Shown here: piece by piece, positions 85-46,634 of the stretch
Layout: each line of letters starts with the position of its first letter
How positions within the stretch are numbered: the first letter of the stretch is position 1
Assembly: GCA_964448605.1 (NCBI GenBank)
Contig: CAYUZV010000004.1
Coordinates: forward strand, 645-64,644
Length of the DNA: 64,000 nucleotides
DNA from: Candidatus Woesearchaeota archaeon
Lineage (GTDB): Archaea > Nanobdellota > Nanobdellia > Pacearchaeales > GW2011-AR1
Reading direction: 5' to 3'
The notes under the pieces: generated by a model
Seen by the model: the letters and a program-made list of their open reading frames with translations, nothing else
Databases searched by the model: none
What the model was told of the DNA's origin: nothing
Program-made: the position numbers and the translations under genes

Positions 85-435
85 ATGACAATTCCAAAAA
101 ATCATGGATATCGTTTAACCTATATCTGCGAGGAAGAAGAATCAGCAAAATGGGAAAATCCAGGATTACTTTATTCTTCAGAACTTGAATCAGTTGCAGA
201 AAAAATTTCCAAAGAATGGACTTATGGAAACAATAAAACAGACCCAAGAGGTTATATACATGAATTTTATTTCAATGATTCAGGAAGTTTTGCATCAATC
301 ACAAAAAAGAATTCTAACTCTCCTCCAGAGATTATATCAATAACCCTAATAAATTCAAAATCACCAGGAACCTTAGAAAAAATCGCACTAAAAATAGGAC
401 TTCACTACGATGAATCAGAAGTTCAAACAGATTAA
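85..435 (+). CDS. hypothetical protein (116 aa)
   Basis: ATG ORF after an AT-rich TATA-like tract. No motif recognised. Its 3' end overlaps the stop of the convergent giant ORF by 4 nt. Confidence 0.35.
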   Translation: MTIPKNHGYRLTYICEEEESAKWENPGLLYSSELESVAEKISKEWTYGNNKTDPRGYIHEFYFNDSGSFASITKKNSNSPPEIISITLINSKSPGTLEKIALKIGLHYDESEVQTD

Positions 436-3400
436 TTCTCACTAACAAACCTCTCTCCTTCCAGCTTATAATTTTCCAAAACATCAATACCTGTCTGAAC
501 ACTAAAACTCACCTTGCCTCCAATTATCAAACCAACTGGCTTATCAGGAGCAATTTCACGATAAATCAAATAACCTCCTGACCTTTTAACAACATAATAA
601 CCAGTATAAACACCTCCAAAAAAAATCTTTCCATCAATCAACTCATAAGTTCTGTCAGAAGGAGATGGCTCAACAATAACTTCATCTTCTAAACCTTCAG
701 AACTAACCTTCTCCAAATCCTCAACATTTTCAGCTTGAGGAGCAGGTCCAACATCACCTCTCAATTCATATTCAACTAAAGCACTTGCAATCTTTTTATA
801 CAACCTGCCTAACCACAAAAATGCCTCACTGCGATAAACATTTTTAGCACCCAACTCACTAACCTGAATCAATTTATCCCGAACTTCAGAAATCCTGCTC
901 TCAATGGCATTAACAGAATCACCTGAATTAACATAAATATCTTCCTGAATTTTTTTACGAGCCCAACTAATCTCTGCTTGAGAAGTATTGCAACTCAAAA
1001 AACCATCAATATCCAAATATTCAACATTAACTTCATTCAAAATCTCACTTTCAACACCACTATCCTTAACAACATTTTGAACAGAGTCAGTGTCCAACCA
1101 ACACCTTATTGTAGGGTCATCGCAATAACCAACATCTTTCCATTTATCATAAATTGTCGCAGTTTTATCATACTCGCCACTTGATAAAACCTCCTTACCC
1201 GGATTTTCAGTTGAACAAATTCTAATGATTCCATGTTTATACAATTGAGGCTCAATAACCTCATCAGCACCACTCTGCAGATTAGGTTGCAAAGCAGAAA
1301 TCAAAGAAGGAGTTCCAGCCACACACTCTTCTTCACTTTTTATACCGGTCTTAGTTTGCTCTTCCACATAAGCATCAGAAATACTATTCAAAATATAAGA
1401 AGTTGAAACTTTTCCAAAACCACACTCTTCCTGCCCATTAACACTAATGCACAACTGCTTATAACCTGAAACAGCAGTAAAATCCCTTGCCTCATCAACC
1501 TGACTACCCTTAGCAATATAACCAGAATCAACCAAATGAGTTCCAGAAGAATAAATATAACCAGATTCAGGCAAATCTCTCAAATAAACAGAATAATAAA
1601 CACCCTGATCATTACCAGAATAAATATGATAATAAACCTTATAATGTGAAGTTGCAGGAATTGTCGCAGTTGTAAGAGTATTCTCACTAAACCATGCAGA
1701 ATACTGAACAGGACTATCTGGTTCTAATAAATTATCAAAATAATTCTCAGAATCAGGATAACGAACAGACATAAAAGAACTGCAAACATCTGAACCAATT
1801 TCATCAGTAGACCTTTCAGTAAATGCTTTCATAGAATTAACTGCATATTCATTCTTAAAATAATCAATAGCAGATTTTGTATTTTCCCAAGATGACTGAA
1901 CAGTCAAATACTCTCCACCACCTCTGACACCCTGACTAAAAAACGATTCAATCAAACGAGGAATTATAACATTCACTAAAGGTGTCGCCTGTTTCCAAAA
2001 AAACTCGCACAAATAAATACTTTTAATCTCATCACAAATGCCAATATTTCTACCACTCTCAATACTTTCTCTTAAACAAGCCTGAGTTGAATTCAAAATA
2101 CTCAAATAACCTTCAATACCTGCATGAACACCACTTAAACAAACAGGAACAAAAATTCCTTCATTAATATTAGGCAGACACAACATCAAACTTCCAATCA
2201 CTCCTGTCTGAATAACATTATCAACTCTAAACTTGCCTCCTAAATCACATCTTGAAGTAGGACAAATAACAGGGTCGCAAACATTAAATAACAAATGACA
2301 ATCCTGAGGACTCATAAAATCTGAACATCTGCCTTCTTCACCTGCAAAAGATATAGCAGAACCAAAAACATTCCTTCCAATATTTATTGTTTTCTGTCCA
2401 TACTGCCTTGAAGCTTCAGCAATCGCCTGTTGAGCACGACTAATCAACAACCTCGATTCACCAGAACTCATACCTGGAAAACTCAACTCATTAACATTCC
2501 CATTATAATACCTGCAAATATCATCAGCAGATTTTTTAAATTCAATCAAACCATTAGTTCCAACATTGCAAATATAATAATTCACAGCCCTGCCTGATTC
2601 ATCATAAGGTTTTCCAAATCCACTTAAAACATAAGTCATATGAACATACCATCCCTCATCAGGACCAAACGGCACCTCTGCAGGCAAACCCTTATAAGGA
2701 GTCCTCTCAAAATACTTAACCTTCAAACTCTCTGAATTAAGCATTTTATTCTTATAAACCTCTTCATCAGATTTCTTAAAAGAACTAACCCGATTATAAG
2801 CCAAATACTCTTTAACATCTTTAGTAATATCATCATCACCAACACCATCCAAAGAATAAGCACCATCATAAACATAATTACCAGAATTCTCATCTTTAAC
2901 AACCTTAATCAAAGCATATCTATCAGCAACTTCTGAACTTGCAGAATAATCACCAGCAGGAAGTTTAGAAGGAATAAAAACCCTAATCAAATTATCACCT
3001 GCTTCAAATCCTTTTTCAGATAACTTATCCCTTTCCTTAACAGTATATATATTTGAAATAGCAGATTTCTCACCTGCAAAGGAAGTTGCTTTCAACCCAT
3101 AATCCTTAGCCTCTTCTTCAGCTGAAATCTTCGCACCATAATACTCTTGATAATTTCTTGCTTCCAAAGTAGATTGCCCCAATGAACTGCTAACCATTTC
3201 ATCCATAACAACACTTCCAGAACCCAATGCACTATGCATTGTCATTATATCTTTTCTCTGTTCATGAGTCATTGTATCCCAAGAACAAACCTCATCAAAA
3301 GAAACAGAATCATTTCCAGGCAAACCAATACTTCCTGATTGAGCAGAACAAAACTCCTCAAACTCCTCTTCAAATTCCTCCTCAATCTTTTTAGCATCTG

Positions 3401-5984
3401 CCTGCCCTTCTAAATCAAAAACATCATCTCTATCAATCCCCACCTTGCTCTGAATCTCCTCTAACTTACTATTAGTTTCCTTAATCTTTTCTTCATACAA
3501 CTCTATATCTTCATTTATTTTATCATTGTGCCCTAAAAGACAAGATTGCACAGAAGAATAACTTTCACCAGTTATTGAAGAGGTTTTACCACTTCCAACC
3601 AAATCCTCACAAAAATCATTCCATCCTCCAGAACCTGTCATCAACATTTTACGAGCCATTGCCTCTCCAGAAAAACCCTCCACTAATGTCTTAACAGCAA
3701 GAGCCGCAGAAGTCGCATAACAAGCACCCTTCAAACCCTCAACAACCTTCCCTAATTTACTATTCGCCTCACTCCATTTTTTAATCTTATCTCCCATTTC
3801 ATTAATCATCTCTTTAGTTCTATCAGGACTCAATTTAATATCTCTCTTTTCAATTCCAATTTTAAATTTAAAATTAGACTCTGTCCGAGGTCCAAAACTC
3901 TTTGGAGTAATTGTAAACTTCGCCTGTTTCTTTAAATTAATATTCAAAAGTTTAACATTCGAATCCTCTATCAATGCCTGCTCTTTTAATTTAATCTGCA
4001 AGGTCTTAGAATCAGAACCAAAAATATTATTTCCCGACTTAGCATAACTAATCAAAACATACTCATCATTTATCTCTTTCAACTGAAAATTCAATTTATC
4101 AACAGAAACAACCTCTCCAAAACCAACTTTATATTCCTTGCCATCAATCAAAAAAACAGCATTTGCATCATCCTTGCCAGGTTTTTTAACATCAAGCAAA
4201 TCAAAAAAATAAGCCTGATTATTCATATAAACAACAACCTTGGATTGCGAAGAATCATATCTAGTCAAAAGCTCCTTATCTCTTTTAGCAGAAATAGCAA
4301 CATCGGAATTCGGATAATCTCTAATCAACTGACTAAAAAAATCATTTGCCTTTCCATTCTGACCAAATACCTTAGACAAATAAGCCGCCTCATACAATCC
4401 TTGTGCAGCATAAGCATCCTGTGCCTCATAAGATTTCTCAGAAGGATAAAGCTCAACCAAATCCTCATAATAATCAATTGCCTCATCATAATACTTCTTA
4501 GCAGAACTTTCAGAATCCCATTCCTTATCCTTCGTATTCTGAACATCCTCTAACAAAATACCATACTCCACATCATCAACTTTCAAAAATTTAATCTCCA
4601 CATCACTCTCACTTCCTGGAACTTTTTTCCTATACTGCCCCTTAACAGCATTTCTAATCTTAGATTTCAAGTCACCAATTTCCTTTAATTCAATATTTTC
4701 CTCAATAACATCATAAATCTCTTTTTCAGCAAAACCTGCCTCACTTTCAGAGTTTTCATCCTTAATCAAAATAACAAATTTATTCTTTTCAGAATCCTGC
4801 CCTGCATAAGCCAAAAATATTTTTTCCTTAACCTCATTACCAATTGAATAACTATCTGAAACACCATCAACTTCTAAATTTGCTTTTCCAGGATTCAAAC
4901 CCAATTGAAACCTTCCATTCTGAACTCTGCAACTAATATCTACATTACCTCCTCCTGAATAAGCATTTAAATCAGTCACCCAACATTTTCCATCCAAAAT
5001 TCTATCTCCTCTTGAAACCCAAATCTGCTTTGAATTAGTACTGTCACTTATCTGAATCAGAGCAGTATCAACAGGTGCTTTAATCTCATCAAGTTTTATA
5101 TTCATTCCAGCAGCACAATAAAAACCAGATAAATAAATATCCCTTGAGGTCTCACCCTCTCTCAATGTAACTGTTGCCTGTTTCGAATCCTTATCTCTAT
5201 AAACAGAAACAGTAACCTGGTCAGGATTCATATTTTCAGAAGGAACCTGTTCAATTGACTCTGCCCTCAAATATGCCTTTCCATTCCAAAAACTATACTT
5301 TTCATAATTTCTCAGCCACTCCTCATTTGAAATTTCATTAACATAAAAATTAGTTCTTCCAATTCCAAAAGCACCTTCTGCATCATAATCAATAACAGCA
5401 CTAATATTCCCCTCAACAAAATCAGGCATTTCTCCTTCAACATCATTTTTAGACAAAACAATAACAGCATAACCAAGATTATCCTTGACAGGAGAAGATT
5501 CTAATTGATTTCCACTTTGAATAGAAGCTCTTGCAGGAAAATACGAAACAGATGAAACTCCTTCAGGATATTTTCCAGTAAACCTTAATGCCCTTATTTT
5601 AGAAACATCAATTAAAGGATTAACCTGAATAGCACTAACCTTACAAAAAACAGGAACATTTTGCTCTTCTAACAAATCTGAAGTAACAACAGCAGGACTG
5701 CATCCTCCAGGAGGAATCTGCATAATAAAATCCTGTCTTTCCAGACAATCTTCTTTATCAAAATCAGGCCAATAAATTTCAGGAGATGTAAAATACGAAG
5801 AATGCAAAAAACTTGGATTATTAAATTGAGGATTTACAGAACTTCCATAAACTCTATACGAACCTCCTCCAAAAGTCGCAGGATAGCTATGAGAAAAAGT
5901 CTCTTGAGCAAAAGCTAAACTCAAAAAAATCAAAATTCCAAACAGCATCACCATAAATTTTTTCATCTTAACTAAACCAGACAT
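432..5984 (-). CDS. giant secreted Cys-rich surface protein (1850 aa; probable start at Met7, nt 5966)
   Basis: Longest ORF in the window. MKKFMVMLFGILIFLSLAFA|QE is a Sec-type signal peptide. Contains a TPR-like stretch (AKKYYDEAIDYYEDLVELYP...) and a Cys-dense block around aa 1090-1400. Antisense ORFs inside it are shadows. Confidence 0.85.
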   Translation of the reverse strand: MSGLVKMKKFMVMLFGILIFLSLAFAQETFSHSYPATFGGGSYRVYGSSVNPQFNNPSFLHSSYFTSPEIYWPDFDKEDCLERQDFIMQIPPGGCSPAVVTSDLLEEQNVPVFCKVSAIQVNPLIDVSKIRALRFTGKYPEGVSSVSYFPARASIQSGNQLESSPVKDNLGYAVIVLSKNDVEGEMPDFVEGNISAVIDYDAEGAFGIGRTNFYVNEISNEEWLRNYEKYSFWNGKAYLRAESIEQVPSENMNPDQVTVSVYRDKDSKQATVTLREGETSRDIYLSGFYCAAGMNIKLDEIKAPVDTALIQISDSTNSKQIWVSRGDRILDGKCWVTDLNAYSGGGNVDISCRVQNGRFQLGLNPGKANLEVDGVSDSYSIGNEVKEKIFLAYAGQDSEKNKFVILIKDENSESEAGFAEKEIYDVIEENIELKEIGDLKSKIRNAVKGQYRKKVPGSESDVEIKFLKVDDVEYGILLEDVQNTKDKEWDSESSAKKYYDEAIDYYEDLVELYPSEKSYEAQDAYAAQGLYEAAYLSKVFGQNGKANDFFSQLIRDYPNSDVAISAKRDKELLTRYDSSQSKVVVYMNNQAYFFDLLDVKKPGKDDANAVFLIDGKEYKVGFGEVVSVDKLNFQLKEINDEYVLISYAKSGNNIFGSDSKTLQIKLKEQALIEDSNVKLLNINLKKQAKFTITPKSFGPRTESNFKFKIGIEKRDIKLSPDRTKEMINEMGDKIKKWSEANSKLGKVVEGLKGACYATSAALAVKTLVEGFSGEAMARKMLMTGSGGWNDFCEDLVGSGKTSSITGESYSSVQSCLLGHNDKINEDIELYEEKIKETNSKLEEIQSKVGIDRDDVFDLEGQADAKKIEEEFEEEFEEFCSAQSGSIGLPGNDSVSFDEVCSWDTMTHEQRKDIMTMHSALGSGSVVMDEMVSSSLGQSTLEARNYQEYYGAKISAEEEAKDYGLKATSFAGEKSAISNIYTVKERDKLSEKGFEAGDNLIRVFIPSKLPAGDYSASSEVADRYALIKVVKDENSGNYVYDGAYSLDGVGDDDITKDVKEYLAYNRVSSFKKSDEEVYKNKMLNSESLKVKYFERTPYKGLPAEVPFGPDEGWYVHMTYVLSGFGKPYDESGRAVNYYICNVGTNGLIEFKKSADDICRYYNGNVNELSFPGMSSGESRLLISRAQQAIAEASRQYGQKTINIGRNVFGSAISFAGEEGRCSDFMSPQDCHLLFNVCDPVICPTSRCDLGGKFRVDNVIQTGVIGSLMLCLPNINEGIFVPVCLSGVHAGIEGYLSILNSTQACLRESIESGRNIGICDEIKSIYLCEFFWKQATPLVNVIIPRLIESFFSQGVRGGGEYLTVQSSWENTKSAIDYFKNEYAVNSMKAFTERSTDEIGSDVCSSFMSVRYPDSENYFDNLLEPDSPVQYSAWFSENTLTTATIPATSHYKVYYHIYSGNDQGVYYSVYLRDLPESGYIYSSGTHLVDSGYIAKGSQVDEARDFTAVSGYKQLCISVNGQEECGFGKVSTSYILNSISDAYVEEQTKTGIKSEEECVAGTPSLISALQPNLQSGADEVIEPQLYKHGIIRICSTENPGKEVLSSGEYDKTATIYDKWKDVGYCDDPTIRCWLDTDSVQNVVKDSGVESEILNEVNVEYLDIDGFLSCNTSQAEISWARKKIQEDIYVNSGDSVNAIESRISEVRDKLIQVSELGAKNVYRSEAFLWLGRLYKKIASALVEYELRGDVGPAPQAENVEDLEKVSSEGLEDEVIVEPSPSDRTYELIDGKIFFGGVYTGYYVVKRSGGYLIYREIAPDKPVGLIIGGKVSFSVQTGIDVLENYKLEGERFVSEN

Positions 5985-7848
5985 TTAATCTAGACACCTC
6001 CAAACTATTATAATTTTCCTGCAATCCTTCAACAGATGTAGGACTTCCAAATTCTTCATAATCAATATTCAAAACATCCATTTCTAAATCTGTCTCACTC
6101 ACAAAATACTCCTGACTGCCCCCTCCGGTAATTGCACTTCCAACAACCTGCTCAGGAACTTCAATATCAAAACATTTCTCCTCTGTCATTCCAAAGACAC
6201 TCCAAACTCCTCCCTTAGGAACATCAACACACTTTTCCAAATTAGAAGAAGGAAGATCAATGCTTGAATCTGAATAAACATATGCCTTAATATCATATAA
6301 ACCTTCAACCAAAGAAACACTCTCTTGTTCAGGATAAGCCACAACAACACTTTTCTCAACATCCCCACTCTCAATATCCTTTCTTGAAAAACTAACTACT
6401 GCATATTCACTTCCTTCAATACCTATATTCAAATCAATATCATATTCATTTCTTAAAATAACAATAACTTCTCCAGAATCAATAGTTGAAACTAATTGTT
6501 TTTTAGTTTCATAACCTTCTGCACTTGCAATAATATAACCATTTTTGCATTGGGGAAATTTAGCATTCAAACTGCCCTCTGATGCAGAACCAATATCACA
6601 ACTTGTATCAAAACACTTAAATGAAATATCTGCACCAACACTTTCCAAATCACTATTATAAACTAAAACATCCATTTCAGTCAATTTATGCTTACACAAT
6701 TCAGGAACAACATCAGGCAAACTCTCTCCAGTTGCACTACGAGCCTGATTTTTATCAATATAAACAACAATCGGAAACTGAAAAATTTCACTCTCAGAAT
6801 AAATCTGAATTAAAACAGGATATGCAAAATCGTAAACAAAATGATAAGGAACATAACAAAAACCTAACATTCCCAATCCTTCCTGCAAACCAACAGGGTC
6901 AGCTCTCAAAATACCATTCTCAGAAGGCCAAACATCAACTTTCACAGGCCACTTCTTCAAAAACATAAAATTAACATCATACTTAACATCATTTCCAATA
7001 TCCTGAACAAAATATTTATTCTCTTTTTCAGACAAAGAATAATAATCTCCTTTAATTTTTATAAAAGGAACATTCTCACTCAAAGCATTAATCAAATCCT
7101 CTCTAATTTCATTAACATTCCAAATCTTAGGCGAACATCCAATATCACTTCCATCCACAGGAGCATTCAACCTCAAAATATCAATACCATAATTCTCCAA
7201 GAACATAGATTCCTGATTATGCTCATAAATTTCCTTGCTCAAATCATAAAACTCTCCCAAATGAGAATCAACCTCAACATCAAAATTACCTGAAGTCCAG
7301 GTAGTATTTCCAAAACCAATACTCAAATCTTGTTCAACATCTATTTTTATTTTATTATCTTTAATCTCACTTTCAACCTCACTCAAACCATAACTAATCG
7401 CAAAACCCTGCTCTTCAAATTCAGAAAAATCACAATCCTGCAATCTACCCTCTAAAAAAACATTCAACTGCTCTTCCATTTTTTCTTTAGACGGAACCTG
7501 TTCTTTTTTCACATTATTTCCAGAAATATAAAACCAATAAGGAACACCAATTCCCAAAAAATCCAATTGATTTGAAAAAGGCATATATTCTGAACCAGGT
7601 GAAAATTCCATTTCAATATAACCTCCTCCTTGCCCCATCAAATAAGCACCATTAGAAACCTCATTCTCAATACAAGACAAATAATAAGAATAAACTGGCT
7701 CAATATTTTTAGGTATTGAAGATTCAAAAGGATTTTTCACAACAAAAAAAACAACTCCAATAACAGCAACCAACACAATTGCAATTATAATAAAAATCGC
7801 AACCTGCCCTTTCTTAGCAATCAATGCTCTATCAAACTCTCCTTTCAT
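5968..7848 (-). CDS. large prepilin-like protein (626 aa) with class III-type signal peptide and beta-sandwich-like C-terminal region
   Basis: The N-terminus ...AKKG|QVAIFIIIAIVLVAVIGVVFFVV fits [KR]G plus a hydrophobic helix. GYIIASAEGYETKKQLV resembles a carboxypeptidase-regulatory-like fold. Its stop abuts the start of the giant ORF. Confidence 0.7.
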   Translation of the reverse strand: MKGEFDRALIAKKGQVAIFIIIAIVLVAVIGVVFFVVKNPFESSIPKNIEPVYSYYLSCIENEVSNGAYLMGQGGGYIEMEFSPGSEYMPFSNQLDFLGIGVPYWFYISGNNVKKEQVPSKEKMEEQLNVFLEGRLQDCDFSEFEEQGFAISYGLSEVESEIKDNKIKIDVEQDLSIGFGNTTWTSGNFDVEVDSHLGEFYDLSKEIYEHNQESMFLENYGIDILRLNAPVDGSDIGCSPKIWNVNEIREDLINALSENVPFIKIKGDYYSLSEKENKYFVQDIGNDVKYDVNFMFLKKWPVKVDVWPSENGILRADPVGLQEGLGMLGFCYVPYHFVYDFAYPVLIQIYSESEIFQFPIVVYIDKNQARSATGESLPDVVPELCKHKLTEMDVLVYNSDLESVGADISFKCFDTSCDIGSASEGSLNAKFPQCKNGYIIASAEGYETKKQLVSTIDSGEVIVILRNEYDIDLNIGIEGSEYAVVSFSRKDIESGDVEKSVVVAYPEQESVSLVEGLYDIKAYVYSDSSIDLPSSNLEKCVDVPKGGVWSVFGMTEEKCFDIEVPEQVVGSAITGGGSQEYFVSETDLEMDVLNIDYEEFGSPTSVEGLQENYNSLEVSRLNVWFS

Positions 7849-7975
7849 TCTTCCCTCCTTTTTTAACTCTCTCTTTAATCATCTCAATAATCTCACTATT
7901 AATATCCTGTTTTATCAAATTCTTAAATCTTTCCCACATTCTTTCATCTTCTATCAAGAGCAAATACTTTTTCAT
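7832..7975 (-). CDS. small ribbon-helix-helix-like protein (47 aa, below ORF-track cutoff)
   Basis: Hand translation: MKKYLLLIEDERMWERFKNLIKQDINSEIIEMIKERVKKGGKNERRV. Strand plus two-helix pattern. TGA at 7832-7834 overlaps the start region of 5968..7848. A TATA-like TTTATATA lies about 27 nt upstream. Confidence 0.35.
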   Translation of the reverse strand: MKKYLLLIEDERMWERFKNLIKQDINSEIIEMIKERVKKGGKNERRV

Positions 7976-8020
7976 GCAATTCAAAGTAGAATCTTTCGTA
8001 TATAAACCTTTCTTATTAAA

Positions 8021-8047
8021 TTACTAAGTAAGTTAGTTACTAAGTAA
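8021..8047 (-). promoter_or_regulatory. tandem 11-bp palindromes TTACTAAGTAA-gttag-TTACTAAGTAA (candidate operator) upstream of the RHH/pilin-like/giant-protein operon
   Basis: Two identical palindromes at 8021-8031 and 8037-8047, with centres 16 bp apart. They lie just upstream of a BRE/TATA-like AGAAAGGTTTATATA (minus strand, about 7998-8013). Confidence 0.4.
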
Positions 8048-8645: not shown

Positions 8646-8909
8646 ATGGTTAATGGAATTGAAAGACCACTTGATGCGTTGAACAATGCTAAAGGCAAAG
8701 AAGTGTTAGTTCAACTAAAGAACAACAAGCAAATGGTTGGAACACTTCTTGCATTTGACATACATCCAAATGTAGTTTTGGATAATGCAAAAGAAATCGT
8801 AGATGGCGAAGAAAAAAGAAGTGTTGGACTAACTTTTTTAAGAGGAGATACAATCATCTGGATATCTCCTGCAAGCATTGCAAAGCAAGAAGTGGTACAA
8901 GAAGAATAA
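8646..8909 (+). CDS. Sm-like (LSm) archaeal protein
   Basis: Sm1/Sm2-like motifs: LVQLKNNKQMVGTLLAFDIHPNVVLDNA ... FLRGDTIIWIS. Confidence 0.9.
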   Translation: MVNGIERPLDALNNAKGKEVLVQLKNNKQMVGTLLAFDIHPNVVLDNAKEIVDGEEKRSVGLTFLRGDTIIWISPASIAKQEVVQEE

Positions 8910-9179: not shown

Positions 9180-9470
9180 ATGAAAAAACAAGAACCAAGC
9201 AACACTACCTACATCATATTAGGATTAATCTCTCTCTTAATATTCTTCTTATTAATGACATTTCTCATCTTCTTCTATTCAGTAAAACTCTCCCCAGAAC
9301 AATATTCTCACTCAAATCAACTTTTAAAAACATCTGCAGAATTCATCTTCCCAATTTCAATTATGCTAATAGTTTTAATACTAATAACTATAATCCTATT
9401 TTATTTTAAAAATAAATCTCCCTCTAAATCTCAACTTTCAAAAAATCCTTCGCAATTTCAGTATTCTTAA
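9180..9470 (+). CDS. small membrane protein (96 aa, 2 TM)
   Basis: Two long hydrophobic segments. Its 3' end overlaps the convergent RNase Z gene. Confidence 0.45.
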   Translation: MKKQEPSNTTYIILGLISLLIFFLLMTFLIFFYSVKLSPEQYSHSNQLLKTSAEFIFPISIMLIVLILITIILFYFKNKSPSKSQLSKNPSQFQYS

Positions 9471-38300: not shown

Positions 38301-38744
38301 CTACTTAAAAATCTTTTCAAACCTCTCTTCATAAAAATAAGACACCTTAAAACCCTCCCAAGAATCTCCAATTTTAATACTTAAATCAAAACTAACTCCT
38401 TCATCAGAAAACTCAACACTTTCAGAATCAACTTGCATCGCAACTTCTTTCAATTTCTCATTCAAAAATTCATCAGCAATATTATAATTTTCCAACTCCT
38501 CCTTAAATCTCAGAATAAACTCCTCCTCACCCTCAACTCCCCTAACACTCCTCTCCATTAAAAAATCAATATAAAAATTTAACTCATCCTCCTTTAAATA
38601 AACACTATCTAAAAAACTTGAATCCAAAATTTCATTCTCAACTTTTCCACTATGAGTAATAAAAACATAAATTGCAAAAAAACTCAAACCCAAAGCTAAA
38701 AAAACATAAATTCCAGTTGCAATCTGTCCTTTTTTCATTAACAT
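38301..38744 (-). CDS. prepilin-like protein (147 aa)
   Basis: MKKG|QIATGIYVFLALGLSFFAIYVFI. Its start overlaps the upstream stop (TAATG/ATGTTAA). Confidence 0.65.
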   Translation of the reverse strand: MLMKKGQIATGIYVFLALGLSFFAIYVFITHSGKVENEILDSSFLDSVYLKEDELNFYIDFLMERSVRGVEGEEEFILRFKEELENYNIADEFLNEKLKEVAMQVDSESVEFSDEGVSFDLSIKIGDSWEGFKVSYFYEERFEKIFK

Positions 38745-39343
38745 TTTTTTAATTGTTTAAATTTAATTTTAAAATTGTAACCCTTATAAAAAAAATCCAT
38801 ACTAACCTCATCACTCAATTCTCCATTCAAATTCCTAAAACTATCAGGAACAAAACCCTTTTCACTAATAACTCCTTGAGGAATCTTCAAATAAAATTTC
38901 TCACAATTAATAACTCCTGCAATTTGCCCTTCTAATATCTTCTTTTTTCTTTCCAACTCAACAATTCTATCTTTATCAAAACCTTCATTTTCAGCAATCA
39001 AAGGACTAATCTTATCCAACCCCTCAATTCCAAATTTTTCAATTAAACTCTCTCCATCAGCATAAGAAGATTTAATCTCAAAATATTCATCTAAGAAATC
39101 CAAAATAATATTTATCAATTTCTCATCATCTACTTCACTATTAAGAAATTTAACCAAATCATTTTTAACTTCTATTTTTTCAGAAATTAATTTTAAACTA
39201 TCTCTTCCTTCTCCTCCTAAAAACTCCATCTTCCCTCCGGCAATAGCAAGAGAACTGCTAACAAAAGCAACAGAAATTCCAAATATAATTATAAATGCAA
39301 CAAACTCTGTTAAAAAATCTCCAACAGAACCTTTAATGTTCAT
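38738..39343 (-). CDS. prepilin-like protein (201 aa)
   Basis: MNIKG|SVGDFLTEFVAFIIIFGISVAFV. ATGA overlap with the upstream gene. Confidence 0.65.
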   Translation of the reverse strand: MNIKGSVGDFLTEFVAFIIIFGISVAFVSSSLAIAGGKMEFLGGEGRDSLKLISEKIEVKNDLVKFLNSEVDDEKLINIILDFLDEYFEIKSSYADGESLIEKFGIEGLDKISPLIAENEGFDKDRIVELERKKKILEGQIAGVINCEKFYLKIPQGVISEKGFVPDSFRNLNGELSDEVSMDFFYKGYNFKIKFKQLKKC

Positions 39344-39762
39344 CCTAAACCTCCTGAAAAACCTTTCTGCCTAACACCCACCAAAATATCTAAATTCCCT
39401 TTTTCAACCAAGACACATTCAGGATAATTTTCAGCTTCACCAGAAAGAGAAATCAAACAATCTTTTTCAAAAGCATAATTCCCGCCCTTAAATTCCTGTG
39501 AGTCCACCCTAACCCTAAAAAATAAATTCCCTTTTTCAAAAGCACTTTTATCTAATCCACAATAAGAATAAACATCAATCTCACTTCCAGAATAATCCCT
39601 AAAACAATCAACCAATCTCTCTGCTAAAATTTCAGCATTTTCATAATCAATATTGACATCAGCATAATAAACAATAAGAACACTTCCTGCAACAGCACCT
39701 CCCACTACCAAAATTATAAAAATTCTCCATATTGTCAAAATCTTCTCACCCTTTCTATTCAT
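39340..39762 (-). CDS. prepilin-like protein (140 aa from Met8)
   Basis: MNRKG|EKILTIWRIFIILVVGGAVAG. ATGA overlap at 39759-39762. Confidence 0.6.
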   Translation of the reverse strand: MNRKGEKILTIWRIFIILVVGGAVAGSVLIVYYADVNIDYENAEILAERLVDCFRDYSGSEIDVYSYCGLDKSAFEKGNLFFRVRVDSQEFKGGNYAFEKDCLISLSGEAENYPECVLVEKGNLDILVGVRQKGFSGGLG

Positions 39763-40130
39763 TTTACAATCACACTCAACCAATTCTTATCCAGTTTCAA
39801 CTCAACATCATAACCTGAAAAATAAGGATAAGAATATCCATTATTTAATTTAACTTCAACTAAATTTTCAGCTTTATTTAAATAAAAAATATCGTCAGAA
39901 TTATCTCTTCTTGAAACAACATCACCAACCTCAATTAAAATAACTGTTTCTGGTTTTGCCTTGTTAATTATCAAAGCAATTTGTTTTGCATAGGTCATTT
40001 CATAAATTCCATCCCTCTCACCAGCACTAACCACGAAAACACCCATCATCACTATAAATGCCAAATAAAAAATTAAAAATATAGTTGTTCCCATTAACAA
40101 TCCTCTTTTGCTCATCAATCTCTTTTTCAT
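39759..40130 (-). CDS. prepilin-like protein (123 aa)
   Basis: ...SKRG|LLMGTTIFLIFYLAFIVMMGVFVV. Confidence 0.6.
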   Translation of the reverse strand: MKKRLMSKRGLLMGTTIFLIFYLAFIVMMGVFVVSAGERDGIYEMTYAKQIALIINKAKPETVILIEVGDVVSRRDNSDDIFYLNKAENLVEVKLNNGYSYPYFSGYDVELKLDKNWLSVIVK

Positions 40131-40167
40131 AAATACTTCAAGAATAACAAAGTTATAAATTTAACTT

Positions 40168-41106
40168 TTAAGCAATACTCTCAACCCTGCATTCCAAACC
40201 AGAAATCTTTCCATAATCCATAAACAAATTTACAGTAGCACTTGTATCATCTATTTCGCTAATTAAATTATCTCTTGCTTCATCACCTGCTTCTTTTCCT
40301 AAAACTCCTCCAACAAAACTTCCACCAACAAATCCAATAAAACCTCCTGCAAAACTTCCTGCAACAGGAACTATCGAACCAATTGAAGCACCAATATAAG
40401 CACCTGCAACACCTCCTGCTCCACCCCCTGCCACTCCAGAAATCCACACAGGAGCAGTTGACTTACTCAACTCCATATAAACAACTGCCTTTTCATCCAT
40501 ATCAAAAACATCATGCTTTTCATCATAACCTCTTGCATCCAAACCAGAAGTAACAAAATTCCAATAAGAAATCTCCTTTCCAGGAACTTTAGAAGTCATC
40601 ATATAATTCCCCAAACCTTTAATCTGCCCAACACTATTCTTCAAAGACTCATCAAAAGCAATTCTATAACAAATAACACACTTCCTATTTATATCACTTT
40701 GTAAATTAAAATCCTGTGAAAAAACATTCAAATCACCCTTACCCATTTTACTCCAACACTCTGCCTGTTTTCGTGAAAGAATCTCATTTATCTGAACCTT
40801 TATTTCAGCAATACTGCCACTAACTTTTTCAATTCCATAATCATCTCCTCTAAACTCCTCACACTCTCCTCCAATCCAATCATCACTAATACAAATTTTT
40901 TTTGTCTTACATTTCAATGGAATCAAATCCTTAGAATTAAAAATCTCAGGAACACTTGCTTTTTTACTAACAGATTCCTCACAAATAACATCATCAACAT
41001 CAACAGAATTCTCAAATCTCAAAAACAAAAACAAAAGAATCCCAAATGCAACTAAAATCAAAACCAATCCAATAACTACAGATGATGTCAAACCCTTCTT
41101 TTCCAT
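40168..41106 (-). CDS. prepilin-like protein (312 aa) with Cys-containing globular domain and C-terminal Gly-zipper segment
   Basis: MEKKG|LTSSVVIGLVLILVAFGILLF, and a C-terminal GVAGGGAGGVAGAYIGASIGSIVPVAGSFAGGFIGFVGG. Confidence 0.65.
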   Translation of the reverse strand: MEKKGLTSSVVIGLVLILVAFGILLFLFLRFENSVDVDDVICEESVSKKASVPEIFNSKDLIPLKCKTKKICISDDWIGGECEEFRGDDYGIEKVSGSIAEIKVQINEILSRKQAECWSKMGKGDLNVFSQDFNLQSDINRKCVICYRIAFDESLKNSVGQIKGLGNYMMTSKVPGKEISYWNFVTSGLDARGYDEKHDVFDMDEKAVVYMELSKSTAPVWISGVAGGGAGGVAGAYIGASIGSIVPVAGSFAGGFIGFVGGSFVGGVLGKEAGDEARDNLISEIDDTSATVNLFMDYGKISGLECRVESIA

Positions 41107-41107
41107 T

Positions 41108-41203
41108 TTAAAAACCCATCAACCTATTTACAATAAAATACAATCCACTAAATAAAACTACTGCTAAAACCATCCACAAAACATACTTAATCAACTTATC
41201 CAT
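41108..41203 (-). CDS. possible 31-aa single-TM peptide (below cutoff)
   Basis: Hand translation: MDKLIKYVLWMVLAVVLFSGLYFIVNRLMGF. Its stop lies 1 nt before the downstream ATG. Confidence 0.3.
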   Translation of the reverse strand: MDKLIKYVLWMVLAVVLFSGLYFIVNRLMGF

Positions 41204-41223
41204 CTGTGCTTTTTTCAAATCTT

Positions 41224-41724
41224 TCATTTTTCACGAATAATCACCTCATTATTCTTTTTAAAAATATCAAATTCCTCTACTCCATCTATTCCTAAAAAAT
41301 TCTCATTTCCTTCATCATCAATTGTAACTCCCTTAAAATTCAACCCCTTGCAAACTCCATACTTATTACACTCTCTTAATTCTCTTTCCCAAGCTAAAGA
41401 AAAACCAAACAAACCAACTGAAGGACACATGCACAAACAATAACTGCTCCTGCATTGTTGAGGTTTCTGATAAGTATTTTTATTAGGCCAAACCTCCAAC
41501 ATCCAACCAGAAGGTGACTCAATTATAATCTCTTTTTCATCTCCCTCTTCAATCTCTTCAATAAATCCATAAACACTCTCTAAACTAACCTCCGCTTGTT
41601 TAGATTTTGTATCATTAAGATAAATCATACTTAATTGATAAGCAAGTATAAAAAGAATTATCAAAACAACGATTCCTAAAAAAACCTTCACAAGCTCGCT
41701 CATCATAAATTCACCTTTGCTCAT
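41224..41724 (-). CDS. prepilin-like protein (166 aa)
   Basis: MSKG|EFMMSELVKVFLGIVVLIILFILAY, with 6 Cys in the globular part. Confidence 0.6.
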   Translation of the reverse strand: MSKGEFMMSELVKVFLGIVVLIILFILAYQLSMIYLNDTKSKQAEVSLESVYGFIEEIEEGDEKEIIIESPSGWMLEVWPNKNTYQKPQQCRSSYCLCMCPSVGLFGFSLAWERELRECNKYGVCKGLNFKGVTIDDEGNENFLGIDGVEEFDIFKKNNEVIIREK

Positions 41725-42250
41725 TTTTAATCACCTCGCATAAATCATAAACCTGTTCACCAGATTCATATTCAAATTTCTTTTCTTTATTATTTTGAAT
41801 AATATAAACCGAAGCTCCTGAAAACCAACCACCTTCTTCATTTTTTAAAACCCTTTTAATAATCTCTCTTAATCCAATTTCACAACTTTCTCCTTTTAAT
41901 CCTAAAATAAAATCCCTGTCTTTTTCATTTAACTTCTTAAAATTATCTGCATTTACTTCTCCAACACCAAACCATTTTGTCCCATCAGACCACATCCACC
42001 CCTCCTTAAATGCAAAATACAAATAAGGAGTTCCCCAAACTCCATCATCAAATTTAAAATAAGGAATTTCAGAATTTCCATCATAAATATCTAAACCTAT
42101 CTTTTCATCACTCTGAATAAAATCTGGAAAAAAATCCGGCAAATCCAAAATACCAAATCCTGCAAACAAAACAACAATAACAACAATAATCCCTATAGCA
42201 AGTGCTACTATATAACTCATACTCATCTCCCTAGCACCTCTGCGATTCAT
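41711..42250 (-). CDS. prepilin-like protein (179 aa from Met7)
   Basis: MNRRG|AREMSMSYIVALAIGIIVVIVVLFAGF. Confidence 0.55.
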   Translation of the reverse strand: MNRRGAREMSMSYIVALAIGIIVVIVVLFAGFGILDLPDFFPDFIQSDEKIGLDIYDGNSEIPYFKFDDGVWGTPYLYFAFKEGWMWSDGTKWFGVGEVNADNFKKLNEKDRDFILGLKGESCEIGLREIIKRVLKNEEGGWFSGASVYIIQNNKEKKFEYESGEQVYDLCEVIKNEQR

Positions 42251-42251
42251 C

Positions 42252-42410
42252 TTAAACTCCAAAATCAAATAAATTTTTTATAAAATTTTCAGCACCAAAA
42301 AGCTTACCACCAAGCCCCATATAAACTCCGACCACTACAATCACTAAAATACCAACTCCAATAATCCACTTCAAAAGTTCATCAATCCCTATCCTGCCTT
42401 TCTTTAACAT
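42252..42410 (-). CDS. short prepilin-like protein (52 aa, below cutoff)
   Basis: Hand translation: MLKKG|RIGIDELLKWIIGVGILVIVVVGVYMGLGGKLFGAENFIKNLFDFGV. ATGTTAA overlap with the upstream stop. Confidence 0.5.
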   Translation of the reverse strand: MLKKGRIGIDELLKWIIGVGILVIVVVGVYMGLGGKLFGAENFIKNLFDFGV

Positions 42411-42736
42411 TCTACACTCCTGCAATCCAAAAATTTAATTCTATCATTAATATAATCTTCATCCCTCAACAAATAACAACTAACAGAAAAATCCTCTCCC
42501 TTAACCTTCACCTTCCGAAGCTCACAACAATAAGAATATTCTTGTTCAGTATCAACCAAAATATTACACTCTTGAACAACTGAATCAACATTGCTATTTG
42601 AAAAATAACTTGAAATAAAATCCATAAAACCCGAACTTCCTATTAAAAAAAATGTAACTAAAAAAATCAGCACAACTAAAGCAAGAATCATCACAACAAC
42701 ATTATTCCAAACCAATTGCATACCTCTTTTATCCAT
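42404..42736 (-). CDS. prepilin-like protein (110 aa)
   Basis: MDKRG|MQLVWNNVVVMILALVVLIFLVTFFLI, with 5 Cys in the C-terminal part. Confidence 0.6.
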   Translation of the reverse strand: MDKRGMQLVWNNVVVMILALVVLIFLVTFFLIGSSGFMDFISSYFSNSNVDSVVQECNILVDTEQEYSYCCELRKVKVKGEDFSVSCYLLRDEDYINDRIKFLDCRSVEC

Positions 42737-42796
42737 AAACTAAATAAAAAACAAGACTTAATAAAAGTTCTGATTAAACACTATCAGCAATCCCTA

Positions 42797-46284: not shown

Positions 46285-46285
46285 T

Positions 46286-46633: not shown

Positions 46634-46634
46634 C

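What the first reader, a model, noticed from the sequence alone, without database searches (positions are those of the whole stretch)
432..7975. Operon: small RHH-like ORF, 626-aa prepilin-like protein, 1850-aa secreted Cys-rich giant protein
Three co-oriented genes have touching or overlapping boundaries. The giant ORF has a Sec signal peptide (LSLAFA|QE), a TPR-like patch, a ~300-aa block very rich in Cys, and no recognisable enzyme or adhesin repeat. The gene before it begins with the same KKG|Q-hydrophobic class III signal as the pilin array 30 kb away, so the two loci may be linked: a pilin-like anchor presenting, or co-assembling with, a giant surface protein. Giant surface proteins are thought to mediate host contact in episymbiotic archaea, and this one has no family I can name.
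Basis: partly seen in the sequence, partly recalled or inferred. Interest (0 to 1): 0.65.

Follow-up and report, generated by a model that had tools for sequence, protein, structure and literature searches.

The report
Conserved DPANN pilin-plus-giant surface-protein operon
This is an intact three-gene operon found across Pacearchaeota/Woesearchaeota-type DPANN archaea: a small likely regulator, a pilin-like membrane protein, and a 1850-aa secreted scaffold whose variable end carries bacterial cell-wall-cutting enzymes in relatives, so it is probably their host-contact apparatus.

Summary
Three minus-strand genes (47 aa, 626 aa, 1850 aa) overlap by 17 nt each and sit behind an archaeal BRE/TATA.

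The operon is not an assembly artefact. The 626-aa gene has relatives in at least 249 GTDB species representatives. The giant gene follows it in 78 of the 80 loci kept; the other two are cut by contig ends.

Both large proteins evolve about as slowly as neighbouring housekeeping proteins, and neither matches any Pfam, NCBIfam, PHROG or PDB family. AlphaFold2 with Foldseek finds only a YbgF-like TPR and generic beta-sandwiches.

The 626-aa family has a canonical class III (prepilin) signal.

The giant is a conserved body of about 1630 aa followed by a hypervariable C-terminal tail. In longer relatives from the same operon, that tail carries SLT, amidase, M23, M15, phage-lysozyme or DUF1615 domains. 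These are probably the "large murein transglycosylase proteins" already noted in these lineages. The window's member has no enzyme domain.

A tail domain found in 36 of 165 relatives is homologous to the head of one pilin-like ORF in the window's pilin array.

A palindrome, TTACTnAGTAA, sits upstream of the TATA box and co-occurs with the small ORF, which points to an autoregulator.

The best reading is a pilin-anchored host-contact scaffold. Physical anchoring is inferred, not shown.

The parts
8021..8047 (-). Two copies of the palindrome TTACTnAGTAA (8021-8031 and 8037-8047). Candidate operator.
   Evidence: These are the only two exact matches in the 64-kb window. Across 80 related loci, 27 of 34 exact TACTnAGTA sites lie within 450 nt upstream of the 626-aa gene. 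All 25 loci that have one also have the small ORF.
7999..8014 (-). Promoter: BRE-like AAGAAAGG (8007-8014) plus TATA box TTTATATA (7999-8006), 23 nt before the ATG of the small ORF.
   Evidence: Read directly from the sequence. The motif TTAAGAAA[CG][AG]TTTATATA is conserved upstream of the small ORF in most of 40 related loci.
7832..7975 (-). Small ORF, 47 aa (MKKYLLLIEDERMWERFK...). Cytoplasmic. Likely a DNA-binding autoregulator.
   Evidence: A 45-aa homologue sits directly upstream of the 626-aa gene in about 42 of 83 loci; 38 distinct sequences were recovered. In the 18-sequence alignment mean column identity is 71%, with M1-L7, E9, W14, F17, K18, D24, N26, E28 and I33 invariant. It co-occurs with the palindromes. 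RHH profile tests were inconclusive.
5968..7848 (-). 626-aa protein with a class III (prepilin-like) signal and a large ectodomain containing 10 invariant Cys.
   Evidence: More than 1600 homologues at 50-59% identity. No Pfam or PDB match. Unrelated to the giant by hhalign.
7735..7848 (-). Class III signal: leader residues 1-14 ending in KKG, predicted cleavage before Q15, then a hydrophobic helix (residues 15-38).
   Evidence: Measured on 106 of 120 family members. Position -1 is G/A/S in 100%, -2 is K/R in 80%, -3 is K in 72%, and +1 is Q. Leader length ranges from 5 to 60 aa, while the mature N-terminus QVTIFIIIAI is conserved.
432..5984 (-). Giant secreted protein, 1850 aa.
   Evidence: Full-length homologues at 40-64% identity. 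The core matches 1053 clusters (50% identity) in a library of 1.84 billion representatives.
5907..5984 (-). Sec-type signal peptide, residues 1-26, with predicted cleavage at AFA|QE.
   Evidence: It is the only segment with Kyte-Doolittle hydropathy above 1.5 in a 19-residue window. The A|Q junction is conserved in the family consensus. No signal-peptide predictor was available.
4755..5834 (-). Conserved, beta-rich N-terminal region, residues ~51-410. It includes the invariant C80, C95, C114, C290, C334 and C352.
   Evidence: AlphaFold2 model of the N-terminal half: pLDDT 77, pTM 0.62, strands over residues 86-408. Agreement with the window residue, averaged over 50-aa blocks, is 0.40-0.72 up to residue 400 (0.51-0.72 in 51-350) and 0.33 in the 401-450 block. 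Foldseek finds no specific match.
4260..4505 (-). TPR-like helical repeat, residues ~494-575, resembling YbgF/CpoB.
   Evidence: Searches give weak sequence hits. Foldseek matches 2xev with probability 1.0.
3099..3827 (-). Long-helix region, residues ~720-962. It includes a conserved block at 700-830 with C755, C792 and C815.
   Evidence: AlphaFold2 model of the C-terminal half predicts helices with pLDDT 70-90. PHROG gives only a weak tape-measure hit, E=0.077.
1089..2867 (-). Most conserved core, residues ~1040-1632, ending at the motif C-W-x-D-T. It contains 19 of the 31 Cys.
   Evidence: Block conservation is 0.56-0.76 from residue 1101 (0.43 in the 1051-1100 block) and falls to 0.13-0.30 after residue 1650. 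The core is 66-77% identical to the nearest relatives. The AlphaFold2 model shows an alpha/beta domain (974-1234) and a beta-sandwich (1427-1529). Residues 1239-1419 have low confidence.
2112..2225 (-). Two adjacent hydrophobic, Gly/Cys-rich stretches, residues 1254-1291, inside the most conserved block.
   Evidence: With one weaker stretch at 1335-1350, these are the only segments in the core with 15-residue hydropathy above 1.2. AlphaFold2 confidence here is below 50.
435..1088 (-). Hypervariable C-terminal tail, residues 1633-1850. It holds a helical hairpin (1665-1742, nt 759-992) and a small beta domain (1780-1848, nt 441-647). There is no enzyme domain.
   Evidence: The tail is only 25-36% identical to relatives whose cores are 66-77% identical, and often only about half of it aligns. 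Family tail lengths run from ~200 to 1909 aa. Longer tails carry peptidoglycan hydrolases. In the model the hairpin has pLDDT 75-91 and the beta domain about 90.
376..397 (-). Oligo-T runs (T5 and T6) 35-55 nt after the giant's stop codon. Candidate archaeal terminator.
   Evidence: Read directly from the sequence. Not tested further.
41711..42268 (-). Pilin-like ORF in the distant array. Its head (residues ~41-185) is homologous to a domain in giant-family tails.
   Evidence: blastp gives E=3e-16 against P0054 residues 1892-2034 of 2044. jackhmmer finds 36 of 165 tails with 1-4 copies. No other window ORF shares a domain with the tails.
38301..44944 (-). Context: an array of eight small ORFs with [KR]G-hydrophobic N-termini, plus a 715-aa polytopic membrane protein.
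   Evidence: None has a Pfam, NCBIfam or PDB match.

Best explanation
The operon encodes a lineage-specific cell-surface host-contact apparatus of Pacearchaeota/Woesearchaeota-type DPANN archaea.

1. The 47-aa protein is a cytoplasmic DNA-binding autoregulator. It binds tandem TTACTnAGTAA palindromes just upstream of the BRE/TATA.
2. The 626-aa protein is made with a class III signal and is cut by a prepilin peptidase before Q15. It stays in the membrane, or in a short type-IV-filament-like stub, through its conserved hydrophobic N-terminal helix.
3. The giant is exported by Sec, folds with many disulfides, and is held at the surface by the 626-aa partner. It has no membrane anchor of its own.
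4. The giant's ~1630-aa body is an invariant scaffold. Its last ~200-1900 aa form an exchangeable module that meets the partner cell. In many relatives that module hydrolyses bacterial peptidoglycan. In the window it is a non-enzymatic helical hairpin plus beta domain, most likely a binding module.

Shown: operon structure, conservation, signal motifs, modular tails, domain sharing with a pilin-like ORF, and operator co-occurrence.
Inferred: cleavage of the signal, physical anchoring, which end is distal, and the identity of the target.
For: **Operon and synteny**
- The genes overlap, and a TATA box precedes them.
- The giant follows the 626-aa gene in 78 of 80 GTDB loci. The other two are cut by contig ends.

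**Evolutionary rate**
- Mean identity to the window is 49% for the 626-aa protein and 42% for the giant. NDK is 49% and S3Ae is 53%. This fits a fixed machine, not a free adhesin.

**Class III signal**
- The signature is conserved while leader length varies from 5 to 60 aa.

**Giant protein**
- It has a Sec signal and no other membrane segment.
- Conservation drops sharply after CWxDT.
- Tails carry SLT, Amidase_2/3, M23, M15_4, Phage_lysozyme2, GH3, DUF1615, LRR or Ank domains.
- Giants that bear these domains lie in the same operon in L053, L069 and L081.

**Link to the pilin array**
- A tail domain is shared with pilin-like ORF 41711-42268.

**Regulator**
- The palindrome is enriched more than 100-fold upstream of the operon and is found there only where the small ORF is present.

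**Literature**
- Large extracellular murein-transglycosylase proteins specific to these lineages are proposed to attach to bacterial walls (PMC8204110, PMC9723730).
- Class III signals on large non-filament proteins are established (bindosome), and PilY-like adhesins occur in archaeal type IV filament loci (bioRxiv 10.64898/2026.04.22.720090).
Against: - There is no direct evidence that the two large proteins interact.
- The operon is 30 kb from the pilin array. In relatives it sits beside ribosomal-protein genes, not beside filament-machinery genes.
- No prepilin peptidase or pilus ATPase was found among the window ORFs that were scanned.
- The 626-aa protein does not hit the Pfam class III signal model.
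- None of the 119 closest homologues has a peptidoglycan-hydrolase Pfam hit on record, and neither does the window's giant. The enzymatic evidence therefore comes from more distant clades.
- The pilin-context copy of the tail domain was seen only once. All 6 loci from the metagenome scan carried the domain in giant tails or in contig-cut ORFs.
- Near-universal presence and slow evolution fit a cell-envelope protein just as well.
Confidence: 0.5

Rival explanations
1. The pair is the main cell-envelope (S-layer-like) system of these archaea. The giant would be the secreted canopy subunit and the 626-aa protein its membrane stalk, as in SlaA/SlaB of Sulfolobales. Lineage-specific C-terminal add-ons would decorate the whole cell surface.
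For: - The operon is present in at least 249 species representatives, and only one copy of each gene is present in the window.
- It lies in a housekeeping neighbourhood next to L44e/S3Ae/NDK in 62 of 83 loci.
- It has a strongly conserved BRE/TATA.
- The architecture is a large Sec-secreted protein plus a smaller membrane-anchored partner in one operon.
- The domain content is rich in beta-sandwiches.
Against: - No sequence or fold similarity to any solved S-layer protein.
- N-x-S/T sequons are depleted, not enriched. The giant family has 7.5 observed against 17.8 expected, mean z of -2.7.
- Conservation of 40-60% is unusually high for S-layer proteins (general knowledge).
- A class III signal anchor and exchangeable enzymatic tails are not S-layer features.
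- No data on protein abundance are available.
Confidence: 0.2
2. The giant is a released exoprotein, a secreted lytic or binding factor. The 626-aa pseudopilin-like protein would be part of its export or maturation route, like a type II secretion piston or a dedicated extracellular chaperone, not an anchor.
For: - The giant has no anchor of its own.
- Relatives carry lytic enzymes.
- Pseudopilin-type N-termini function in secretion pistons in bacteria (general knowledge).
- The two genes co-occur strictly.
Against: - A conserved ~1630-aa body is hard to explain for a diffusible enzyme.
- Release would be wasteful for an ultra-small symbiont.
- No secretion ATPase or platform gene travels with the operon.
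Confidence: 0.12
3. The conserved Cys-rich core is a membrane-active module. After the tail breaches or binds the partner's wall, the hydrophobic Gly/Cys-rich hairpin (residues 1254-1291) inserts into the partner's membrane to form a pore or a cytoplasmic bridge.
For: - The most hydrophobic stretches outside the signal peptide lie in the most conserved block.
- AlphaFold2 gives low-confidence helices there despite the high conservation. This can happen with conformationally switching or oligomeric segments.
- Relatives pair this core with wall-degrading tails.
- DPANN archaea are known to form cytoplasmic connections with hosts (literature).
Against: - The hydropathy is modest (1.7 over 15 residues). 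The segments contain invariant Cys and Pro and could simply be a buried core.
- No similarity to known pore formers or fusogens.
- The idea rests on inference alone.
Confidence: 0.1

Closest known systems
Large extracellular murein (lytic transglycosylase) proteins of Woesearchaeota/Pacearchaeota. Sources: Castelle et al. 2021, fam00969 in module 98 (PMC8204110); Vigneron et al. 2022 (PMC9723730).
   Same: The lineage restriction, the size (about 2000-3000 aa) and the extracellular prediction all match. Members of the window's family carry SLT/GH23 and other peptidoglycan hydrolases. It is very probably the same family; this is an inference, since the family's sequences were not compared directly.
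   Different: The window's protein lacks the SLT domain that drew attention to the family. Three things do not appear in the papers read here: the conserved ~1630-aa body with an exchangeable tail, the obligatory pilin-like partner, and the small regulator with its operator.
PilY1/PilC with minor pilins at the tip of bacterial type IV pili, and the PilY-like adhesin of archaeal type IV filament subsystem 4A (bioRxiv 10.64898/2026.04.22.720090).
   Same: A large Sec-exported non-pilin protein is encoded next to a protein with a prepilin-type N-terminus, with a proposed surface contact function.
   Different: There is no PilC/PilY1 beta-propeller and no sequence or fold similarity. The operon is not inside a filament-machinery locus. 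The partner is a single 626-aa protein, not a set of minor pilins.
Sulfolobales S-layer pair SlaA/SlaB.
   Same: A two-gene operon encodes a protein of more than 1400 aa secreted by Sec together with a smaller membrane-anchored partner. Both systems are rich in beta-sandwiches.
   Different: There is no detectable homology. The anchor here is an N-terminal class III helix, not a C-terminal transmembrane helix. Sequons are depleted, and the tails are variable and enzymatic.
Polymorphic effector architectures: a conserved delivery body with a swappable C-terminal domain. Examples are polymorphic toxins and phage tape-measure or tail proteins with lysin domains.
   Same: There is a sharp boundary between the conserved body and the hypervariable C-terminus. 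The tails carry a repertoire of wall-lytic domains that includes Phage_lysozyme2, M23 and SLT.
   Different: There is no homology to those delivery bodies, only a weak PHROG tape-measure hit at E=0.077. The operon contains no immunity gene. The tails are hydrolases or binding modules, not nucleases or deaminases.
Bindosome-type class III signal substrate-binding proteins of Sulfolobales.
   Same: A large globular protein carries a prepilin-type N-terminus and is encoded away from the filament machinery.
   Different: The 626-aa ectodomain has no solute-binding fold hit and no ABC transporter neighbour. It is paired with a giant secreted protein.

Membership tests
Archaeal class III signal peptide (type IV pilin-like) proteins: the 626-aa protein | A short basic leader ending in [KR] at -2 and G/A/S at -1. 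| tested here: met
   The window protein has KKG|Q. In 106 of 120 homologues, -1 is G/A/S in 100%, -2 is K/R in 80%, and -3 is K in 72%.
Archaeal class III signal peptide (type IV pilin-like) proteins: the 626-aa protein | A hydrophobic helix of about 20 residues directly after the cleavage site. | tested here: met
   Residues 15-38 score 3.56 on the Kyte-Doolittle scale. The median hydrophobic run in the family is 21 residues, and QVTIFIIIAI is conserved.
Archaeal class III signal peptide (type IV pilin-like) proteins: the 626-aa protein | A match to the curated Pfam class III signal model (Class_IIIsignal/DUF361). | tested here: not met
   No such hit at E<=1 for the window protein or for 30 homologues.
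Archaeal class III signal peptide (type IV pilin-like) proteins: the 626-aa protein | Cleavage by a PibD/FlaK/EppA-type peptidase and assembly by a type IV filament ATPase and platform. | not testable with these tools
   No Peptidase_A24 or T2SSE hit among the window ORFs scanned. The rest of the genome is not available.
Ribbon-helix-helix (CopG/Arc/MetJ) regulators: the 47-aa ORF | Sequence-profile or fold similarity to RHH proteins. | tested here: inconclusive
   The PDB profile search found no RHH. One of 18 members hits Pfam Arc at E=0.05. hhalign against a CopG sequence recalled from memory gives probability 1.4%. Size and the beta-alpha-alpha pattern are compatible.
Ribbon-helix-helix (CopG/Arc/MetJ) regulators: the 47-aa ORF | First gene of its operon, with tandem palindromic operators at the promoter. 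| tested here: met
   Two TTACTnAGTAA copies sit upstream of the BRE/TATA. The palindrome co-occurs with the small ORF in 25 of 40 loci that have it and 0 of 40 that lack it. Binding itself was not tested.
Large murein-transglycosylase proteins of Pace-/Woesearchaeota (Castelle 2021, fam00969) | A very large extracellular protein restricted to these lineages. | tested here: met
   1850 aa with a signal peptide. All named homologues come from Pacearchaeota, Woesearchaeota or Nanoarchaeia bins.
Large murein-transglycosylase proteins of Pace-/Woesearchaeota (Castelle 2021, fam00969) | An SLT/GH23 lytic transglycosylase domain. | tested here: not met
   Absent from the window protein. Present in homologues: P0361 and P0286, 9 of 21 mid-length tails, and L053 and L081.
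S-layer pair (SlaA/SlaB-like) | Sequence or fold similarity to known S-layer proteins. | tested here: not met
   No PDB sequence-profile or Foldseek match.
S-layer pair (SlaA/SlaB-like) | Abundant, lattice-forming, usually N-glycosylated. | not testable with these tools
   The only proxy is sequon content, which is depleted.
PilY1/PilC-type pilus-associated adhesin | A PilC/PilY1 C-terminal beta-propeller, with the gene inside a pilus gene cluster. | tested here: not met
   No Pfam or fold hit. The operon lies beside ribosomal-protein genes in relatives and 30 kb from the pilin array in the window.
TPR repeat (YbgF/CpoB-like) domain: giant residues ~494-575 | A helical-hairpin repeat fold. | tested here: met
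   Foldseek against 2xev: probability 1.0, TM-score on the target 0.52, rmsd 2.6 A. Sequence hits are below curated cut-offs.

The most novel reading that the evidence does not exclude
The operon is the core of a previously undescribed archaeal cell-to-cell attack or bridging machine. The pilin-anchored giant would first use its exchangeable tail to bind or cut the wall of a bacterial host. It would then insert its ultra-conserved Cys/Gly-rich hydrophobic hairpin into the host membrane to open a conduit. This would make it the long-sought molecular basis of host access in Pacearchaeota and Woesearchaeota.
Probability: 0.1. Interest if true: 0.85.

Novelty: new variant of a known kind. Interest (0 to 1): 0.62.

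Why it matters
Pacearchaeota and Woesearchaeota are among the most abundant uncultured archaea. Nobody knows who their hosts are or how they attach.

This operon is near-universal in the lineage and conserved like a housekeeping system. It combines a pilin-type anchor with a giant scaffold whose tip is swapped between lineages, often for enzymes that cut bacterial peptidoglycan.

If the reading is right, it provides three things:
- a concrete, testable candidate for the host-contact apparatus;
- a marker, the tail type, that could predict host type for each lineage (bacterial or not);
- several new protein folds, plus a small regulator with a defined operator.

Tried and rejected
**Family and structure searches that found nothing**
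- Pfam, NCBIfam and PHROGs on all three proteins gave nothing above threshold.
- PDB sequence-profile searches with the family alignments found nothing.
- AlphaFold2 was run on the two halves of the giant. Foldseek against PDB and BFVD gave no hit at E<1e-3, only generic Ig/FnIII-like sandwiches and the TPR.
- The viral and tape-measure idea was dropped: only a PHROG hit at E=0.077.
- Homology between the 626-aa protein and the giant was rejected (hhalign probability 0.2%).

**RHH fold for the small ORF**
- Not supported by profiles.

**Pilin locus and its machinery**
- The search for pilus machinery in the window found no prepilin peptidase or ATPase among 20 ORFs.
- The 715-aa membrane protein has no Pfam, NCBIfam or PDB match.
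- Pilin-array homologues are not next to the operon in 83 related loci. The only hits turned out to lie inside giant tails.

**The shared tail / pilin-head domain**
- It has no Pfam or PDB relative.
- A homologue search with the pilin-like ORF found only itself.
- A metagenome scan found the domain only in giant tails or in contig-cut ORFs.

**Practical failures and limits**
- A 100-sequence alignment was too large for the structure tool.
- The relevant supplementary table of Castelle 2021 was not readable.

Full report
**1. What is there**

Positions 432-7984 hold three co-oriented minus-strand ORFs.
- The small ORF runs from 7832 to 7975 using the ATG start, giving 47 aa.
- The 626-aa gene is at 5968-7848.
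- The 1850-aa gene is at 432-5984.
- Each junction overlaps by 17 nt.

GGAGG-type ribosome-binding sites precede the two large genes. Upstream of the small ORF, read on the minus strand, the order is:
- two copies of the palindrome TTACTTAGTAA at 8047-8037 and 8031-8021;
- a BRE-like AAGAAAGG at 8014-8007;
- a TATA box TTTATATA at 8006-7999;
- 23 nt, and then the ATG.

Two oligo-T runs follow the giant's stop codon. The window is AT-rich (27-35% GC). Its best protein matches come from Pacearchaeota, Woesearchaeota and Nanoarchaeia bins.

**2. It is real and widespread**

- The giant has about 396 homologues in the 5.8-billion-protein search. The best 120 cover 90% or more of its length at 40-64% identity and are 1800-2400 aa long. 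The ORF is therefore not a fused or frameshifted artefact.
- Its core (residues 1040-1660) matches 1053 clusters at 50% identity among 1.84 billion representatives, 917 of them at E<1e-30.
- The 626-aa protein has more than 1600 homologues at 50-59% identity.
- A scan of one genome per GTDB species found 249 relatives of the 626-aa gene.
- In the 80 loci kept, the giant gene follows on the same strand in 78. The other two are cut by contig ends. A homologue of the small ORF lies directly upstream in about 42 of 83 loci.
- In 62 of 83 loci the operon is within 8 kb of the genes for ribosomal proteins L44e and S3Ae.
- Mean identity to the window is 49% for the 626-aa protein and 42% for the giant. 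NDK is 49%, S3Ae 53% and L44e 57%. These extracellular proteins evolve about as slowly as housekeeping proteins.

**3. The 626-aa protein**

It has one hydrophobic segment, residues 15-38. Across 106 of 120 homologues the junction is K at -3 (72%), K/R at -2 (80%), G/A/S at -1 (100%) and Q at +1, followed by V-T-I-F-I-I-x-A-I. The preceding leader varies from 5 to 60 aa.

A variable leader, a small residue at -1 and a conserved mature hydrophobic N-terminus together form the signature of an archaeal class III (prepilin) signal. From general knowledge, Q at +1 is typical of the EppA/Epd type. The related filament system 1 is reported in methanogens and DPANN (bioRxiv 10.64898/2026.04.22.720090).

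The ectodomain has ten invariant Cys and no Pfam, NCBIfam, PHROG or PDB relative. It is unrelated to the giant.

**4. The giant**

The N-terminus is a Sec-type signal with predicted cleavage at AFA|QE. No other membrane segment exists.

AlphaFold2 was run on the two halves. The N-terminal half gave pLDDT 77 and pTM 0.62. The C-terminal half gave pLDDT 67.5 and pTM 0.38. The models show, in order:

| Residues | Feature |
|---|---|
| 86-410 | beta-rich region |
| 494-575 | TPR-like repeat |
| 582-712 | more beta-sandwich |
| 720-962 | long helices |
| 974-1234 | alpha/beta domain |
| 1239-1419 | poorly modelled stretch |
| 1427-1529 | Ig-like sandwich |
| 1665-1742 | helical hairpin |
| 1780-1848 | small beta domain |

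Foldseek finds only the YbgF/CpoB-type TPR (probability 1.0) and generic sandwiches in PDB, and nothing in BFVD.

Conservation is highest in residues 101-150 and 1101-1650. It collapses after about residue 1650, just past the motif C-W-x-D-T at 1628-1632.

The protein has 31 Cys, 20 of them in residues 1139-1665 and almost all invariant.

With one weaker stretch at 1335-1350, the only moderately hydrophobic stretches in the core are at 1254-1291, inside the most conserved and least confidently modelled block.

**5. The key finding: a conserved body with an exchangeable tail**

- Tail length after CWxDT has a mode of 200-300 aa (218 aa in the window) and reaches 1909 aa.
- Against its nearest relatives, the window's core is 66-77% identical but its tail only 25-36%, and often only half the tail aligns.
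- Long tails carry peptidoglycan-degrading domains:
  - Amidase_3 with DUF1615, DUF1615 with ankyrin repeats, and SLT in three very long members;
  - Phage_lysozyme2, Glyco_hydro_3, Amidase_2, Peptidase_M15_4, Peptidase_M23, SLT and LRR among 19 others;
  - SLT in 9 and DUF1615 in 1 of 21 mid-length tails.
- Three GTDB loci (L053, L069, L081) show such giants directly downstream of the 626-aa gene. These are orthologous operon members.
[quoted passage not shown] 2021, PMC8204110; also PMC9723730). Identity with that family is my inference.
- The window's own protein has no enzymatic domain, and none of its 119 closest homologues has a peptidoglycan-hydrolase Pfam hit on record.

**6. A link to the pilin array**

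The array at 38.3-42.7 kb holds eight small ORFs with [KR]G-hydrophobic N-termini. One of them has KKG|Q. A 715-aa polytopic membrane protein lies next to the array.

The head of one array ORF (41711-42268, residues ~41-185) is homologous to a domain in giant-family tails. blastp gives E=3e-16 to the extreme C-terminus of P0054. jackhmmer finds 1-4 tandem copies in 36 of 165 tails, sometimes preceding the hydrolase domains, as in P0318 and P0370. No other window ORF shares anything with the tails. The domain has no Pfam or PDB relative.

The same module can therefore sit on a pilin-type N-terminus or on the giant's C-terminus. This ties the two loci together functionally. However, I found the pilin context only once.

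**7. The small ORF**

It is highly conserved (MKKYLLLIEDEKLWEKFK..I.KDINTEII.LIK), with no signal sequence and a basic C-terminus. RHH profile tests were inconclusive.

The palindrome TTACTnAGTAA occurs exactly twice in 64 kb, both times just upstream of the operon's BRE/TATA. Across 1.09 Mb of related loci, 27 of 34 exact TACTnAGTA sites lie within 450 nt upstream of the 626-aa gene. They occur in 25 of the 40 loci that have the small ORF and in none of the 40 that lack it. The BRE/TATA is also conserved.

This is good indirect evidence that the small protein is a DNA-binding autoregulator, whatever its fold.

**8. How it most likely works** (confidence about 0.5)

- The regulator controls a strong promoter.
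- The 626-aa protein is processed like a pilin. It stays in the membrane or in a short filament stub.
- The Sec-exported giant has no anchor of its own and is held by the 626-aa protein.
- The invariant body acts as a scaffold. The exchangeable C-terminal module contacts the partner cell: it cuts peptidoglycan in many lineages and probably binds in this one.

The shown steps are the anatomy, the conservation, the signals, the modular tails, the domain sharing and the operator co-occurrence. The inferred steps are signal cleavage, the physical pairing, the orientation and the target.

Rivals:
- An S-layer-like envelope pair (0.2). Universality, the housekeeping neighbourhood and the two-part architecture favour it. 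Sequon depletion, the class III anchor and the enzymatic tails count against it.
- A released exoprotein with an export helper (0.12).
- A membrane-inserting or bridging machine built around the hydrophobic conserved hairpin (0.1). This is the most novel reading.

**9. Novelty and verdict**

The existence of large murein-hydrolase proteins in these lineages is published. The following are not in the papers I could read:
- the invariant ~1630-aa body with polymorphic tails;
- the obligatory prepilin-type partner;
- the regulator-operator pair;
- the tail domain shared with a pilin-like protein.

I rate it a new variant of a known kind (giant DPANN host-interaction surface proteins), of clear interest to the DPANN field.

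Noticed in passing
window 432-7848; families P0002-P0059 and P0122-P0179: N-x-S/T glycosylation sequons are depleted in both large proteins. The window giant has 4 against 12.7 expected. The giant family averages 7.5 against 17.8 (mean z -2.7). The 626-aa family averages 1.2 against 4.7. This is unusual for archaeal surface proteins.
   Followed up: partly
window 45038-46961 compared with L001/L002 and 62 of 83 related loci: In relatives the operon is divergently adjacent to L44e-S3Ae-NDK, and TFIIB-S8e-LSM-RNase Z lie downstream of the giant. In the window, L44e-S3Ae-NDK sit 38 kb away next to the pilin array, and LSM (8646-8909) and RNase Z (9424-10329) lie upstream of the small ORF. This genome has been rearranged or inverted around the operon.
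   Followed up: partly
window 38301-44944: Eight pilin-like small ORFs and a 715-aa polytopic membrane protein (possibly the filament platform) have no Pfam, NCBIfam or PDB match. No pilus ATPase or prepilin peptidase was found among the window ORFs that were scanned.
   Followed up: partly
window 85-435 (+): A 116-aa ORF converges on the giant and overlaps its stop codon by 4 nt. It also covers the candidate terminator T-runs. It has no homologue in 83 related loci and no Pfam hit, so it may not be a gene.
   Followed up: partly
L020 (JAFCCB010000019, labelled Dojkabacteria) and L061 (DATKUW010000047, labelled Bacillota): Two contigs assigned to bacterial bins carry the complete archaeal operon, including the small ORF. 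They are probably mis-binned DPANN contigs.
   Followed up: no
L001 1-4844: In a 1.36-Mb relative contig, large proteins (1146 aa and 963 aa) with weak or faint Disintegrin Pfam hits lie 3 kb upstream of the operon neighbourhood. They may be another set of Cys-rich surface proteins.
   Followed up: no
window 53535-55883 (+) and 55917-56996 (+): A 782-aa protein combines an N-terminal winged-helix HTH with a full Beta_propel domain (PF09826, E=6e-159). It is followed by a DisA-type diadenylate cyclase (DAC plus DisA-linker).
   Followed up: no
window 13011-14276 (-): A 421-aa protein has a bacterial-type LPG_synthase_C domain (MprF-like, E=1e-33). It lies next to a Male-sterility/NAD_binding_4 reductase at 14283-15422.
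   Followed up: no
whole window: GC skew is strongly negative on the plus strand almost throughout, from about -0.3 to -0.6 per 2 kb. Regions rich in minus-strand genes show the strongest skew, which suggests a marked G over C bias in coding strands.
   Followed up: no
L001 7622-7933: Loci that lack the 45-aa small ORF and the palindromes can have a different small ORF upstream of the 626-aa gene. In L001 it is a 103-aa protein. This may be an alternative regulator.
   Followed up: no
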